Below are positions 37,001 through 64,000 of a stretch of 64,000 nt of DNA, one piece after another. This DNA is from the human T2T-CHM13v2.0 reference genome, Homo sapiens. Positions within the stretch are counted from its first letter, which is position 1; the number at the start of each line of letters is the position of its first letter. A program made the position numbers and the translations under genes. The notes under the pieces are model-generated. The model did not search any database and was not told where the DNA came from. It worked only from the letters and a program-made list of their open reading frames with translations. The stretch is taken from assembly GCF_009914755.1 (NCBI RefSeq), contig NC_060939.1. One strand, 5' to 3'.

Positions 37001-39420
37001 ATTAGCCTGGTGTAGTGGGCATGCACCTGTAGTCCAAGCTACTCAGGAGGCCGAGGTGGGAGGATCAACTGAGCCCTGGAGGTCGAGGCTGCAACAAGCC
37101 ATGATCACACCACTGCACTCCAGCCTAAGCAACAAAGTGAGACTCTGTCTCTAAAACATAAAGTGGGAGACTTCCCCACAACAGTGAGAATGAAACAAGT
37201 TCTACTGTCCTTTCATCATTTCTGAGCAGTTTGAGATTATCAACAAATGAGCTCACTGATTTTGCAGACATACTTATGTTTTGAATGTATTTCATATAAT
37301 TTATTATTGGTTTCAGAATCATTTCCTTTTTAAGTAATTTTTTTGGCTCAGCTAATATCTTAGTTGTACCTACCTTTCCATACTTTGTGAGCTTTCTTAT
37401 TTATACTTAATCTTTCTAAATATACTTGTAAAAATGTAAATGTTAGATCGTTCACTGATAGGCACCAATATCTTTAACAGAAAAGGTTAATTCAAACAAA
37501 TGTCAGGCTAAACTGACAACAGAAATAAAACTGGTCTTCCCAAGTTCAGTTCCTTGTGGATTTGTTATATTGCTACATATTACACCTAGTTTTATGTGTC
37601 TAGATGCTCTGTATCTAGTATACTCTTGAGAGCCTCCAAATATTAATATTTCTTTTTTTTTTGAGATGGGGTGCAGTGGCGTGATTTCAGCTCACTGCAA
37701 CCTCGGCTTCCCACGATCAAGCGTCCTCCTGCCTCAGCCTACTGAGTAGCTGGGATTACAGGTGCCCACCACCACGCCCAGCTAATTTTTTCTATTTTTA
37801 GTACAGATGGGGTTTCAACATGTTGGCTAGGCTGGTCTTGAATTCCTGACCTCAAGTGATTCAACCACCTCGGCCTCCCAAAGTGCTGAGATTACAGGTG
37901 TGAGCTACCGTGCCCAGCGAATATTTCTAGATTTTAGCAGTTGCATAAATTCTACTCCAGGAGGCTTAATATAATTGTCCTTAATATAAATGTCACATTT
38001 CAAATGACATTCAAAAATGTAAAATGATCAATTTAGAAAAAAAAATTACTCCTACCCACTTCCTCTTTTTCTTTTTCTTTTTTTTTTTTTTGAGACAGAG
38101 TTGTACTCTGTCGCCCAGGCTGAAATGCAGTGGCACAATCTCGGCTCACTGAAACCTACGCCTCCTGGGTTTAAGCGATTCTCCTGCCTCAGCCTCCCAA
38201 GTAGCTGGGACTACAAGCGCGTGCTACCAAGCCCGGCTAATTTTTTGTATTTTTTAGTAGAGACAGGGTTTCACCATGTTGCCCAGGCTGGTCTCCAACT
38301 CCTGAGCTCCGGCAATCCACACGCCCCGGCCTCCCAAAGTGCTAGGATTACACGTGTGAGCCGGCGTGCCCGGCCTCACTTCCTCTTTCATACAAGGTCA
38401 GTTCTCACCTATTTCAACCATCAATATGATCGTATTCAAAAAGACCAGGAAGATGATGAAGTTTTTGAAGAGAGGACCTGTTGTCTCTTAAGGAAATGTA
38501 CAGAGTGGAGTTCTTTCTGATTTATGCAGCTGAAATAATAAGAGCAATAACATAAGCAGTGAAAATGAGACAGTGGAGTATGGGGAGCAAAAAATAAGTC
38601 ATTAGGCAGATGATCAACAGCCAGGATAAAAATGAGTGACATGAAAGGATACACTCAAGGACCCATCCGGCCCACAAAGAAAGAGGTGGCCTCTGACTGC
38701 AGCGCACATGAAGCCTGCTCAACAGCCTCTGGGCATGTGAAATCTGTTCTATACGCTGAGGCTTTATAGAGAAACGCACTAGCTGGTGTTGATCTCCCAA
38801 TACAAGTTTCTTCTGGCGGGAAGGATCTACAACAAAAATTAAAAAGGGATAGTGGATAAATACAAACAAAATAGACCAGGTAGGGTTGGGGGCAGGGATA
38901 CTGGTCAGGTAATGGGTTCCCCTAATGCCTTACTGCTAGTCCTTCTCTTCTCACAGCAACTAAGAATTCTGTTTGGAGTGAGAGCAAATGTATTGCTTAT
39001 GACCAACACTGTCCATGCCCACAAAAGCAGCAGGCTCACTCTCAAAGTTTTAAGAGTCTTTGACAGAAACTCTTCCCAATCATCCATGGCTAGTGGCTAT
39101 CCTAGGCCTAAAAGTGAAAGACGTGGATTCTATCTCTTCAGTTTTATTTACAAGCCCTTGATTTATCAAGTTTGGTAAACCAGCAACTAAACCTCCCCAG
39201 AATTTTCCACTCTTAAATGTAGAGGATGTGGATAGGAGTCTTAAATTTAAATTAGTGAAGAAATAGGCTGCTGACCAAGTAACTCCCTGATAGTGTGCCG
39301 CGGCACAGCTTGGCTCAAGCCTTGCAAATGCTCAATGAGAGAGAAAGTATCGATGAGACGTGAACGAATGGCATCAGCTCGGGGAAGCTGCATCTGCTCT
39401 TCTTGTTGGTAAGCGGCCAT
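22059..39420 (-). CDS. CATSPER2: Cation channel sperm-associated protein 2, complete CDS (12 coding exons, 1593 nt, 530 aa)
   Basis: Exons splice to an open frame [10 protein letters not shown]...[10 protein letters not shown]4 voltage sensor [10 protein letters not shown], pore TLDHW, C-terminal coiled coil. Confidence 0.96.
23557..23721 (-). CDS. CATSPER2: CATSPER2 exon 12 (165 nt)
   Basis: RLDWETL...KKLQEFA. Confidence 0.94.
24075..24292 (-). CDS. CATSPER2: CATSPER2 exon 11 (218 nt; alternative start 24286)
   Basis: SRGASQQ...Ser-rich...FSESI. Confidence 0.9.
24430..26035. mobile_element. L2 3' fragment with inserted Alus (25020-25336 +, 25575-26035 -)
   Basis: L2-like motifs (AGTAATCCTT..TCATGTCACTCCTCTG, TGTAAGCTCCATGAAGCAGG) and Alu consensus. 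Confidence 0.7.
26142..26605 (-). mobile_element. MLT1 (MaLR) solo LTR
   Basis: TGTATTAGT..CTGCCATAACAAATTAC..AAACTTGG start, typical MLT1 body, ends ..ACTACA. Confidence 0.8.
26718..26774 (-). CDS. CATSPER2: CATSPER2 exon 10 (57 nt)
   Basis: [18 protein letters not shown]. Confidence 0.92.
27085..27184 (-). CDS. CATSPER2: CATSPER2 exon 9 (100 nt)
   Basis: [13 protein letters not shown]...RQIIQ. Confidence 0.93.
27399..27577 (-). CDS. CATSPER2: CATSPER2 exon 8 (179 nt, pore loop and S6)
   Basis: [18 protein letters not shown]...IVAMM. Confidence 0.95.
28989..29096 (-). pseudogene. U6 snRNA retropseudogene (full length) in CATSPER2 intron 7
   Basis: Reverse complement GTGCTCACTTCGGCAGCACATGTACTAAAATTGGAACGATATAGAGAAGATTAGCATGGCC...CATATTTTTT; ACAGAGA box changed to ATAGAGA; flanking direct repeat TGATTAGTG. 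Confidence 0.93.
30262..30386 (-). CDS. CATSPER2: CATSPER2 exon 7 (125 nt, S5)
   Basis: SMTFLLML...YHVFF. Confidence 0.94.
31002..31157 (-). CDS. CATSPER2: CATSPER2 exon 6 (156 nt, S4)
   Basis: SLLPEVV...[12 protein letters not shown]...RALK. Confidence 0.95.
31683..31855 (-). CDS. CATSPER2: CATSPER2 exon 5 (173 nt, S2-S3)
   Basis: LLESTNTK...[11 protein letters not shown]. Confidence 0.95.
35852..36170 (+). mobile_element. MER1B-type hAT/Charlie MITE
   Basis: CAGGGGTCCCCAA...GGGGACCACTG terminal inverted repeats; 8-bp TSD ATCTAGGG / ATCTAGGA. Confidence 0.88.
36424..38375. mobile_element. Four Alus in CATSPER2 intron 4 (36424 -, 36864 +, 37652 -, 38065 -)
   Basis: Alu consensus. Confidence 0.9.
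38409..38477 (-). CDS. CATSPER2: CATSPER2 exon 4 (69 nt, S1)
   Basis: [22 protein letters not shown]. Confidence 0.93.
38653..38826 (-). CDS. CATSPER2: CATSPER2 exon 3 (174 nt; U12-type donor)
   Basis: DPSRQKK...WVLE; donor T|GTATCCTTT. Confidence 0.93.
39276..39420 (-). CDS. CATSPER2: CATSPER2 exon 2 coding part (exon starts 39422)
   Basis: TAGCAG|ACATGGCC..CTTG|GTCAG; MAAYQQ...IRELL. Confidence 0.95.
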
Positions 39421-40151
39421 GTCTGCTAAGAAAATGTAAGCATCAAGTGTCATTTCATTCTTGGAGCTGCACCAAGGATTACAGGTTTTCTGTCCCCTCC
39501 TCCCCACCCTCTTTACCCTTAAGATTCCTTAATGTACCCACATCTACGAACTAGGAGCAGTTGGGAAGAACAAACATTCTACTAGGACTCAGGGTGTTTT
39601 GAAACAAAAGGGGCTAAGTGGTAAAGACATTGCACAGTCGACCAAGCGGCCAGGCATCTTCACTTTGTGATGGCATTTCTAATTAAAACTCATTAAAAAC
39701 AAAACAAAACAAACAAAAACACCGCAAGAAAAAGGAGCAGCCACAAGGGCAGGGGCCCGGGGCTGGACAAAGAATCTGGGTCCCACCTGTGCCTGAGACA
39801 ATCGGGCAATGAGGTGGAGTTGGGGGAGGTCTTGGCCTGCTCACGCAAGAGAAACCAAGTGCAGAGAAATTGGACAAAATGCCAAAGCCTGACATTTTGA
39901 AAATGGGTCCCGTCCCAAGTGTGTCCACTCCAACACTCCTTCGGGGGCTAGCTCCTTCTCTCCTCCATTCTCGCTTCTGGGCCTCACCTCAGCCCAGGTT
40001 CTCTTTGCCCACTCAGTCCTTATTTCACGCTTCCGCCTCCAGCTCAGGTGCCCCGAGCCTGGCTACCCCTATGCAAGACGAGCTCAGGGCCGGCTCCCAG
40101 CCTCACTGCGCCCCATTCCCCGCCCCGCTCGACCCCCAGGTTTCGGCTCAC

Positions 40152-40245
40152 CCCGGGACCCGGCCCTAGCCCCTACCCACAGCCCAGGACCATGCGGAGC
40201 AACGCTCGCCCAGCCACTCGCCGCCTAGGCCCCGCCCCGCCCCGC
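40152..40245 (-). other. CATSPER2: Probable CATSPER2 non-coding exon 1 (5' end approximate)
   Basis: Donor GGG|GTGAGC at 40152/40151 inside the CpG island, next to GC boxes. Confidence 0.5.
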
Positions 40246-40304
40246 TCTCCGGCCACTCAGCGGTAACCAGCTGGTCCCGCCCGCCCGACGAAGGCGACGC
40301 GCAG

Positions 40305-63694: not shown

Positions 63695-63802
63695 CTGTGT
63701 GTTGTCCTCATAAAGCATGATGACAATCTGGGTCATGTAGTTAAGCTCTGAGATGGCACTAAGATAATCCAAAGCTCGCTGCCATTGTGCATCCTGGGTC
63801 TC
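63695..63802 (-). pseudogene. PPIP5K1P1: PPIP5K1P1 exon (108 nt)
   Basis: [36 protein letters not shown]. Confidence 0.9.
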
Positions 63803-63959
63803 CTACCAAATGCAAAAAGAGGTAAGCCATTGCTTAAGGAAATGGGAGTCAGAGAATGAGCAGGGAGCCAATGAGAATGGAGAAAGCTTTCATTTGAGAA
63901 GAGTAAAAGAATGCTGGGAAAAAGCTGTTCACAGGCTAAAGAAGAAGGAGGATCCTTAC

Positions 63960-64000
63960 ATCAAGAAGTCCTCCATAACGGAAGACACTGAGCAGGGAGT
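63960..64000 (-). pseudogene. PPIP5K1P1: PPIP5K1P1 exon (partial, window edge)
   Basis: SLLSVFRYGGLLD|GTAAGG. Confidence 0.88.

What the first reader, a model, noticed from the sequence alone, without database searches (positions are those of the whole stretch)
39276..64000. PPIP5K1P1 to CATSPER2 read-through is automatically in frame: potential inositol-pyrophosphate enzyme / ion channel chimera
Seen: all nine recognised PPIP5K1P1 exons here are open with GT-AG ends, and the gene lacks its own terminal exons. The last four exons (ending 59389, 55778, 55014, 51324) all end in a phase-1 G, and the next recognised exon acceptor on that strand is CATSPER2 exon 2 (AC ATG), giving GAC ATG in frame. 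From memory, a read-through transcript is annotated as non-coding, but the frame match itself is read from this sequence. Inference: the duplication replaced the PPIP5K1 disordered tail with the whole CATSPER2 ORF. It could give a fusion protein, or somatic CATSPER2 mRNA from a broadly active promoter, depending on whether the upstream PPIP5K1P1 exons (outside the window) are intact.
Basis: partly seen in the sequence, partly recalled or inferred. Interest (0 to 1): 0.75.

Follow-up and report, generated by a model that had tools for sequence, protein, structure and literature searches.

The report
Known PPIP5K1P1–CATSPER2 read-through, stop-carrying exon
A cut-off but otherwise intact copy of the enzyme gene PPIP5K1 is transcribed into the neighbouring sperm-channel gene CATSPER2, but the catalogued transcript passes through an extra exon full of stop codons, so it is an already known, probably non-coding read-through rather than a new fusion protein.

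Summary
All nine PPIP5K1P1 exons in the window are open with AG/GT ends. Donors at 59389, 55778, 55014 and 51324 end in a phase-1 G. Joining any of them to CATSPER2 exon 2 (39422) gives an ORF that runs to the CATSPER2 stop: 1546, 1588, 1609 or 1670 aa.

There are 26 coding exons from an ATG at 75700, 1078 codons with no stop. They differ from the parent PPIP5K1 by one residue, R292Q, which corresponds to the active-site Arg281 of PPIP5K2.

It has stops in all three frames and ends the PPIP5K1 frame at TAA 41215-41213, giving 1093 aa. NR_146339.1 also skips CATSPER2 exon 27085-27184.

The frame match is a 1-in-3 coincidence. The four donors share a phase only because the intervening exons are multiples of three.

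A PPIP5K1->CATSPER2 "in-frame" RNA chimera was already published (PMC4136775), seen in 73 sample detections across five populations. Its junction maps to 55778 joined to 23721.

Verdict: a known read-through caused by a duplication breakpoint 5 nt before the next acceptor. It is most likely an NMD substrate. I found no evidence of a fusion protein.

The parts
63960..64000 (-). PPIP5K1P1 coding exon 20. The whole exon is 63960-64074 and runs out of the window.
   Evidence: Hub table. AG/GT ends and open frame. Matched by orthologue proteins.
63695..63802 (-). PPIP5K1P1 coding exon 21, 108 nt, ends in phase 0.
   Evidence: 100% identical to the parent copy.
62650..62766 (-). PPIP5K1P1 coding exon 22, 117 nt.
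62338..62502 (-). PPIP5K1P1 coding exon 23, 165 nt. It carries one synonymous difference from the parent at 62386.
60112..60261 (-). Alternative cassette exon, 150 nt, phase 0-0, open, AG/GT. Not in NR_146339.1.
   Evidence: tblastn with slow-loris PPIP5K1 isoform P0015, 78% identity. Sequence and frame.
59389..59479 (-). PPIP5K1P1 coding exon 24, 91 nt. It moves the frame to phase 1 and its last base is G.
55778..55903 (-). PPIP5K1P1 coding exon 25, 126 nt, phase 1-1. Its donor matches the donor of the published PPIP5K1->CATSPER2 chimera.
   Evidence: PMC4136775 Table S1.
55014..55076 (-). PPIP5K1P1 coding exon 26, 63 nt, phase 1-1. It is the last constitutive exon kept by the duplication. 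Its donor is spliced to 41259 in NR_146339.1.
   Evidence: Hub table..
51324..51506 (-). Alternative cassette exon of PPIP5K1, 183 nt (61 codons), phase 1-1. One third-codon-position difference from the parent at 51334. Not in NR_146339.1.
   Evidence: 97-100% identical in the 120 listed of 752 matching mammalian proteins, nearly all named PPIP5K1 isoforms.
49847..49852 (-). Duplication breakpoint. 49852 is the last base homologous to the parent. In the parent, 5 more nt and then the acceptor of the next coding exon follow. In this copy a T-run and an Alu-like sequence follow instead.
41335..47363 (+). A 6-kb LINE-1 with its 5' UTR at 41335 and poly-A at about 47350-47363. It is antisense to the read-through and lies in the 13.7-kb intron between 55014 and 41259. 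It is absent from the paralogous stretch beside CATSPER2P1.
41086..41259 (-). 174-nt exon of NR_146339.1 lying between PPIP5K1P1 and CATSPER2. It has stops in all three frames. In the PPIP5K1 frame the stop is TAA at 41215-41213. Acceptor ...ttgttcag, donor GAG|gtaaga.
   Evidence: Hub table..
39276..39422 (-). CATSPER2 exon 2. It begins AC, then ATG at 39420-39418.
   Evidence: Hub table..
27085..27184 (-). CATSPER2 coding exon, 100 nt, left out of NR_146339.1. Skipping it shifts the CATSPER2 frame.
   Evidence: Hub table; a direct-join model without this exon stops at 1428 aa.
23557..23721 (-). CATSPER2 penultimate coding exon. It starts in phase 1. Its acceptor matches breakpoint 2 of the published in-frame chimera.

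Best explanation
PPIP5K1P1 is the 5' 32 kb of PPIP5K1, copied by the 15q15.3 tandem duplication. It includes the promoter region and 26 coding exons. The copy ends 5 nt before the acceptor of the next exon, so the donor at 55014 has lost its partner. RNA started at the duplicated promoter runs on through an intron that holds an antisense L1. It then splices to the next usable acceptors downstream: a cryptic 174-nt exon (41086-41259) and then CATSPER2 exon 2.

The cryptic exon ends the PPIP5K1 frame after 15 codons. The catalogued RNA therefore encodes at most a 1093-aa tail-less PPIP5K1-like protein. It is a textbook substrate for nonsense-mediated decay, and it does not translate CATSPER2.

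The in-frame relation between the PPIP5K1P1 donors and CATSPER2 exon 2 is real but coincidental. It matters only for transcripts that skip the cryptic exon, and none is documented.

Shown: the anatomy, the frames, the breakpoint, the stops, and the intact upstream ORF. Inferred: promoter activity, decay of the RNA, and absence of a fusion protein.
For: - Homology to the parent runs from 49852 to at least 82337 at 99.7-99.9% identity, with 52 differences.
- The breakpoint lies 5 nt before the parent acceptor.
- The 26-exon chain is 3235 nt, 1078 codons plus one G, with no stop and AG/GT at every intron. It was checked against bonobo and slow-loris PPIP5K1 proteins.
- It differs from the parent in these exons by R292Q plus two synonymous changes.
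- Both Pfam domains of the orthologue (residues 55-144 and 390-906) lie inside the retained part.
- Exon 41086-41259 has stops in all three frames. The NR-like model stops at 1093 aa.
- RefSeq files the RNA as NR_146339.1, a transcribed pseudogene, with the 41086-41259 exon and without exon 27085-27184 (hub table).
- The cryptic exon has a 7-of-9 match to the donor consensus.
- No difference from the parent lies between 79630 and 82337, the stretch holding the 5' end.
- PMC4136775 reports PPIP5K1->CATSPER2 RNA in lymphoblastoid lines: 18+16+14+17+8 = 73 sample detections in a study of 462 individuals. This shows transcription across the two genes in a somatic cell type.
Against: - The direct joins are open to the CATSPER2 stop, so a coding isoform is not excluded.
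- PMC4136775 classes its chimera as in-frame. By my mapping that junction (55778 to 23721) bypasses the cryptic exon and gives a 1122-aa ORF.
- I could not see any RNA-seq, Ribo-seq or proteomic data.
- The 21 exons of NR_146339.1 that lie outside the window are not listed, so I could not check that it holds all 19 upstream coding exons.
- The cryptic exon's acceptor tract is only 9 of 16 pyrimidines, against 12 of 16 for CATSPER2 exon 2. Some skipping is therefore plausible.
- Decay of the RNA is inferred from the position of the stop, not measured.
Confidence: 0.8

Rival explanations
1. A minor isoform skips exon 41086-41259, or joins a later CATSPER2 exon, and is translated into a PPIP5K1-CATSPER2 fusion protein. 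This would be 1546-1670 aa with the whole channel subunit, or 1122 aa with only the CATSPER2 C-terminal 65 residues.
For: All four direct joins and the 55778-to-23721 join are open. The upstream ORF is intact. PMC4136775 Table S1 lists the chimera as in-frame with 73 sample detections. The cryptic exon's acceptor is the weaker of the two competing acceptors.
Against: No junction to 39422 from a PPIP5K1P1 coding exon appears in the hub table or in any paper found. Of the 188 proteins matching CATSPER2 exon 2, 120 were listed. None of those is longer than 666 aa or carries the histidine-phosphatase domain, but human entries were not visible there. The frame match is a 1-in-3 event. There is no protein evidence.
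Confidence: 0.07
2. The useful product is a tail-less PPIP5K1-like enzyme. It would be 1093 aa, or slightly different if the RNA ends inside the intron after 55014. It keeps the kinase and phosphatase domains but has Gln in place of a substrate-binding Arg. The CATSPER2 part of the RNA would be irrelevant 3' sequence.
For: The ORF is intact at 1078 codons. Both domains are retained. The promoter region is identical to the parent's. R292 aligns with PPIP5K2 Arg281, which PMC3923271 names among active-site side chains that adjust to the ligand.
Against: The stop lies 127 nt before the next junction with 11 junctions downstream, so decay is expected. The near-identity to the parent (0.05-0.09% divergence beyond 52359, against 3.6% next to the breakpoint) fits recent gene conversion rather than selection on the copy. 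A clinical paper states that the pseudogenes of this duplication, other than CKMT1A, are inactive (PMC4302246, passage read).
Confidence: 0.1
3. Promoter swap: the broadly active duplicated PPIP5K1 promoter supplies somatic cells with translatable CATSPER2 mRNA.
For: Read-through RNA is detected in lymphoblastoid lines and is listed as differentially expressed in gingival tissue (PMC11657947, table row read).
Against: In the catalogued RNA the CATSPER2 ATG follows a 1093-codon ORF, so re-initiation is very unlikely. That RNA also lacks the 100-nt exon 27085-27184, which shifts the CATSPER2 frame (hub table).
Confidence: 0.03

Closest known systems
RefSeq NR_146339.1, PPIP5K1P1-CATSPER2 readthrough (transcribed pseudogene)
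   Same: Same locus, same strand and same exons in the window. This is what the finding describes.
   Different: It also lacks the cassettes 60112-60261 and 51324-51506.
PPIP5K1->CATSPER2 tandem RNA chimera (PMC4136775, Table S1; credited there to Kinsella et al. 2011 and to melanoma data)
   Same: RNA joining PPIP5K1-type exons to CATSPER2. Classed as in-frame and recurrent in healthy people.
   Different: The authors assigned the 5' part to PPIP5K1 itself. They filed it among chimeras whose orientation implies an inversion and left it out of further analysis. The duplicated copy upstream of CATSPER2 explains it as a plain read-through. The breakpoint distance of 67,496 fits the exon-25 donor joined to 23721 (67,499 in this assembly; the next best pair is 29 off and out of frame). 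It does not fit exon 2.
15q15.3 tandem duplication (PPIP5K1/HISPPD2A, CKMT1, STRC, CATSPER2), known from deafness-infertility deletions
   Same: The same duplication. Very high identity between the copies is known for STRC and its pseudogene (PMC4302246, passage read).
   Different: That literature calls the PPIP5K1 copy inactive through mutation. In this assembly the only structural defect I found in the retained exons is the 3' truncation, plus one missense change.
Chimeric genes born from segmental duplication, such as POTE-actin (cited in PMC4136775; otherwise recalled)
   Same: A duplication puts the 5' part of one gene in front of another, and splicing joins them.
   Different: Those have a translated, conserved fusion ORF. 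Here the documented RNA is interrupted by stops.

Membership tests
Read-through (conjoined-gene) transcript | Two neighbouring genes on the same strand, with the upstream one 5' | tested here: met
   PPIP5K1P1 at 55005-81449 and CATSPER2 at 19861-40243, both on the minus strand (hub table). Homology map.
Read-through (conjoined-gene) transcript | An upstream donor spliced to an internal acceptor of the downstream gene, skipping its first exon | tested here: met
   NR_146339.1 exon list: 55014 to 41259, then 41086 to 39422. CATSPER2 exon 1 (39988-40203) is absent (hub table). Splice sites read.
Read-through (conjoined-gene) transcript | RNA evidence for the junction | not testable with these tools
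   No read data are held. Indirect evidence: the RefSeq record, and PMC4136775 Table S1.
Nonsense-mediated-decay substrate / non-coding transcribed pseudogene | Stop codon more than about 50 nt upstream of the last exon-exon junction | tested here: met
   TAA at 41215-41213. The next junction is at 41086, 127 nt on, and 11 junctions follow (hub table).
Nonsense-mediated-decay substrate / non-coding transcribed pseudogene | RNA level rises when decay is blocked | not testable with these tools
   This needs an experiment.
Unprocessed pseudogene disabled by mutation | Frameshift, nonsense or splice-site lesion in retained exons | tested here: not met
   26 of 26 coding exons are open with AG/GT ends. 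There is one missense and two synonymous differences from the parent. No difference lies within 30 nt of a splice site of these exons. The disabling lesion is the 3' truncation.
Translated fusion gene | Uninterrupted ORF across the junction in a documented transcript | tested here: not met
   The documented transcript stops in exon 41086-41259. Only hypothetical joins are open.
Translated fusion gene | Fusion protein predicted or observed | tested here: inconclusive
   None of the 120 listed proteins (of 188 matching CATSPER2 exon 2) is a fusion. Human entries were not visible and the remaining 68 were not listed. No proteomic data are held.

The most novel reading that the evidence does not exclude
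The supposed pseudogene is a live gene. A fraction of its RNA skips the stop-carrying exon, or joins CATSPER2 exon 12 as in the published chimera, or ends in the intron after 55014. These RNAs would give somatic cells a tail-less PPIP5K1 variant with Gln at the substrate-binding Arg292. In the skipping isoform that enzyme would be fused to a complete CatSper2 channel subunit, a hominoid-specific enzyme-channel protein.
Probability: 0.08. Interest if true: 0.6.

Novelty: already known. Interest (0 to 1): 0.25.

Why it matters
The read-through is already catalogued, and the RNA chimera has been in print since at least 2014, so the finding itself adds little.

Three by-products are useful:
- The published PPIP5K1->CATSPER2 chimera, set aside as implying an inversion, is explained simply by the duplicated copy upstream of CATSPER2.
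- PPIP5K1P1 in this assembly is not riddled with mutations. It keeps a 1078-codon ORF with both catalytic domains and a single active-site substitution. RNA-seq and proteomic work on PPIP5K1 should therefore watch for cross-mapping. The three exonic differences at 72487, 67324 and 62386 can tell the copies apart.
- The breakpoint 5 nt from an acceptor shows why the read-through exists.

If a fusion or truncated protein were made, it would matter to inositol-pyrophosphate signalling and to the reading of 15q15.3 deletions. Nothing here shows that it is.

Tried and rejected
- **tblastx against PPIP5K2.** The first passes were swamped by Alu matches, and a no-stop filter removed real exons. Interval-by-interval searches and shared AG/GT positions gave the exon chain.
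- **Exon 13/14 boundary.** My first boundary was wrong by 3 nt in total. It was corrected with orthologue proteins. Lengths are therefore one residue short; I use those.
- **Literature searches.** Searching 'PPIP5K1-CATSPER2' found 0 papers. 'HISPPD2A' with 'CATSPER2' found one clinical paper with nothing on chimeras. 'PPIP5K1P1' and 'PPIP5K1P1-CATSPER2' found 7 and 4 papers. I opened two of these as passages only: PMC11657947, which lists the gene name in an expression table, and PMC4136775. For the others I saw only the search listing, and their titles concern copy-number or expression studies.
- **Is 51324-51506 a chance ORF?** I considered this and rejected it.
- **Are the long ape CATSPER2 isoforms (648-666 aa) fusions with PPIP5K1P1?** No. 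Their extra N-terminal residues come from the region just upstream of CATSPER2, antisense to PDIA3P2.
- **Not run.** No structure or complex prediction was run, because no claim here depends on one.
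Full report
**What is there**

The window is chr15:41416001-41480000 of the assembly held as G000. On the minus strand I read CATSPER2 exon 2 and the region upstream of it. I also translated every annotated exon in three frames.

- Exons 63695-63802, 62650-62766 and 62338-62502 are open in phase 0.
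- Exon 59389-59479 is 91 nt and moves the frame to phase 1.
- Exons 55778-55903 (126 nt) and 55014-55076 (63 nt) keep phase 1.
- The stretch 51324-51506 is an AG/GT-bounded 183-nt open segment in the same phase.
- Each of these four ends in G.
- CATSPER2 exon 2 begins AC ATG, so G+AC reads Asp and is followed by the CATSPER2 start Met.

Translating the joined exon models confirms that all four direct joins run open to the CATSPER2 stop. The products are 1546, 1588, 1609 and 1670 aa. One search gave values one residue lower, before a boundary correction.

RefSeq NR_146339.1 (hub table) does not go from 55014 to 39422. It passes through a 174-nt exon at 41086-41259.

- That exon has stops in all three frames.
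- In the PPIP5K1 frame it reads 15 codons and then TAA at 41215-41213, giving 1093 aa.
- The next junction lies 127 nt downstream and 11 junctions follow. This is the standard configuration for nonsense-mediated decay (established rule; decay itself was not measured here).
- Its donor (GAG|gtaaga) matches the consensus at 7 of 9 positions. Its acceptor tract is 9 of 16 pyrimidines, against 12 of 16 for CATSPER2 exon 2. Inclusion is plausible and some skipping cannot be excluded.
- The same RefSeq RNA leaves out the 100-nt CATSPER2 exon 27085-27184. Without it, even a direct join stops early, at 1428 aa.

**The upstream exons**

I fetched window positions 64001-82500 and the parent PPIP5K1 locus.

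- The copy matches the parent from 49852 to at least 82337 at 99.7-99.9% identity. There are 52 differences and a 276-bp intronic tandem repeat at 71461.
- I located the coding exons by translated comparison with the PPIP5K2 locus, by AG/GT positions shared between the paralogues, and by an ATG-initiated first exon at 75700-75554.
- I then checked them against bonobo and slow-loris PPIP5K1 proteins returned. This corrected one boundary: exon 13 is 68461-68379 and exon 14 is 68165-68034.
- The result is 26 coding exons, 3235 nt, 1078 codons plus one G, no stop, and AG/GT at every intron.
- Against the parent, these exons differ at three bases. 72487 gives R292Q. 67324 and 62386 are synonymous.
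- Against bonobo isoform X3 there are 4 differences in residues 1-1057, and Gln292 is private to the copy.
- In the orthologue, the Pfam domains PPIP5K2_N (55-144) and His_Phos_2 (390-906) both lie inside the retained part.
- Residue 292 aligns with residue 281 of the PPIP5K2 kinase-domain crystal construct (numbering derived from the position of Lys248 named in the paper below). PMC3923271 (passage read) lists Arg281 among the active-site side chains that adjust to the ligand.

**Why the read-through exists**

In the parent, the exon after 55014's counterpart begins at parent position -49713. Homology between copy and parent ends at -49707, which corresponds to window 49852. That is 5 nt before this acceptor. 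In the copy a T-run and an Alu-like sequence follow instead. The donor at 55014 has therefore lost its natural acceptor.

The 9.6 kb between the breakpoint and CATSPER2 consists of two parts:

- A copy of the sequence that lies beside CATSPER2P1. Window 40244-41330 matches it at 95%, and window 47450-49724 matches it at 89%. The two pieces are contiguous there.
- A 6-kb L1 on the plus strand (41335-47363) that interrupts it in this copy only.

The first annotated acceptors downstream are the cryptic exon and CATSPER2 exon 2.

**Is the frame match more than chance?**

No. One phase in three fits. The four donors share a phase only because the exons after 59389 are multiples of 3. A terminal G is found in 22 of 26 exons of this gene.

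**Are the two cassette exons real?**

- The 60-residue translation of 51325-51504 matched 752 proteins with E<=0.001. The 120 listed are 97-100% identical and nearly all are named PPIP5K1 isoforms, from primates, artiodactyls, whales, bats, rodents, carnivores, pangolins and armadillo. It is a conserved alternative exon.
- A further cassette at 60112-60261 (150 nt, open, AG/GT) matches a slow-loris isoform at 78%.

**What is in print**

- PMC4136775 (passages and supplementary Table S1 read) lists PPIP5K1->CATSPER2 as class in-frame, on the chr15 minus strand, with breakpoints 43857065 and 43924561. Detections were 18, 16, 14, 17 and 8 samples in five populations, in a study of 462 individuals.
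- The authors credit it to Kinsella et al. 2011 and to melanoma data. They put it among eight chimeras whose orientation implies an inversion, and they excluded those from further analysis.
- The two breakpoints are 67,496 apart. In this assembly the parent's exon-25 donor and the CATSPER2 acceptor at 23721 are 67,499 apart. The next best donor-acceptor pair is 29 off and would be out of frame.
- My recalled hg19 gene coordinates agree with this assignment.
- Exon 25 is identical in the copy and the parent. The simplest source is therefore the copy upstream of CATSPER2, with no inversion needed.
- That join is in frame and gives 1122 aa.
- So an in-frame PPIP5K1-type/CATSPER2 RNA is already published, but with a different junction from the one proposed.
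- Searches for the gene names found no paper describing a junction to exon 2 or a fusion protein.
- PMC4302246 (passage read) states that the pseudogenes of this duplication, apart from CKMT1A, carry inactivating mutations. For the PPIP5K1 copy in this assembly, that lesion is the truncation.

**Predicted proteins**

Of 188 database proteins matching CATSPER2 exon 2, 120 were listed. The longest is 666 aa and none carries the histidine-phosphatase domain. The 648-666-aa ape isoforms owe their extra residues to sequence just upstream of CATSPER2, not to PPIP5K1P1. No 100%-identical (human) entry appeared in that list, so the search says nothing about human annotation.

**Why the ORF is intact**

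Divergence from the parent varies sharply along the copy:

| Interval | Divergence |
|---|---|
| 49852-50520 (669 bp next to the breakpoint) | 3.6% |
| 50521-52358 | 0.33% |
| Beyond 52359 | 0.05-0.09% |

The flanks shared with the CATSPER2P1 side are 5-11% diverged. This pattern fits recent gene conversion by the parent, which is known for this duplication (recalled). It does not fit selection on the copy. With one non-synonymous and two synonymous changes, no test of selection is possible.

**Verdict**

The feature is real and the frames are as stated. It is the catalogued PPIP5K1P1-CATSPER2 read-through, and its documented form is interrupted by stops. A fusion protein, a truncated enzyme and somatic CATSPER2 translation all remain unshown. 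I give them about 0.07, 0.10 and 0.03.

**Left open**

- No RNA, ribosome or peptide data could be consulted.
- The upstream exon list of NR_146339.1 was not available.
- The hg19 mapping rests on distance and frame only.

Noticed in passing
L004:8487 (window position 72487, outside the window): The only amino-acid difference between the copy's 1078-codon ORF and the parent is R292Q. Residue 292 aligns with PPIP5K2 Arg281, a substrate-pocket side chain. Bonobo, slow loris and PPIP5K2 all have Arg there.
   Followed up: partly
window 41335-47363 (+): A 6-kb L1, 96-97% identical to many genomic copies. Its 5' UTR starts 76 nt from the acceptor of the cryptic exon. Its longest open stretch is 786 codons, so its reading frames look interrupted. 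It is absent from the paralogous stretch beside CATSPER2P1. Its antisense side faces CATSPER2, so it might also feed transcripts into the cryptic exon.
   Followed up: partly
window 49852-52358 against the rest of the copy: There is a sharp divergence gradient against the parent: 3.6% in the first 669 bp, then 0.33%, then 0.05-0.09%. This suggests that gene conversion has homogenised almost the whole copy up to about 0.7-2.5 kb from the breakpoint.
   Followed up: partly
window 51324-51506 (-): A 61-codon alternative exon inside the supposedly disordered PPIP5K1 tail is 97-100% identical across distant mammalian orders. It is rich in Cys and His. Such conservation suggests a folded or binding module. 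I did not look for its function.
   Followed up: no
window 40181-40650 (-), upstream of CATSPER2 exon 2: Bonobo and siamang CATSPER2 predictions (648-666 aa) extend the ORF upstream of the usual Met, through sequence antisense to PDIA3P2, and enter exon 2 in the same phase. The 2 nt before the ATG therefore leave exon 2 open to any phase-1 upstream exon.
   Followed up: no
L004:7461 (window position 71461): The copy has a 276-bp tandem repeat relative to the parent, in the Alu-rich intron between coding exons 8 and 9. No exon was detected there.
   Followed up: no
window 58029: The copy has a 16-nt T-run expansion relative to the parent, inside an intronic repeat.
   Followed up: no
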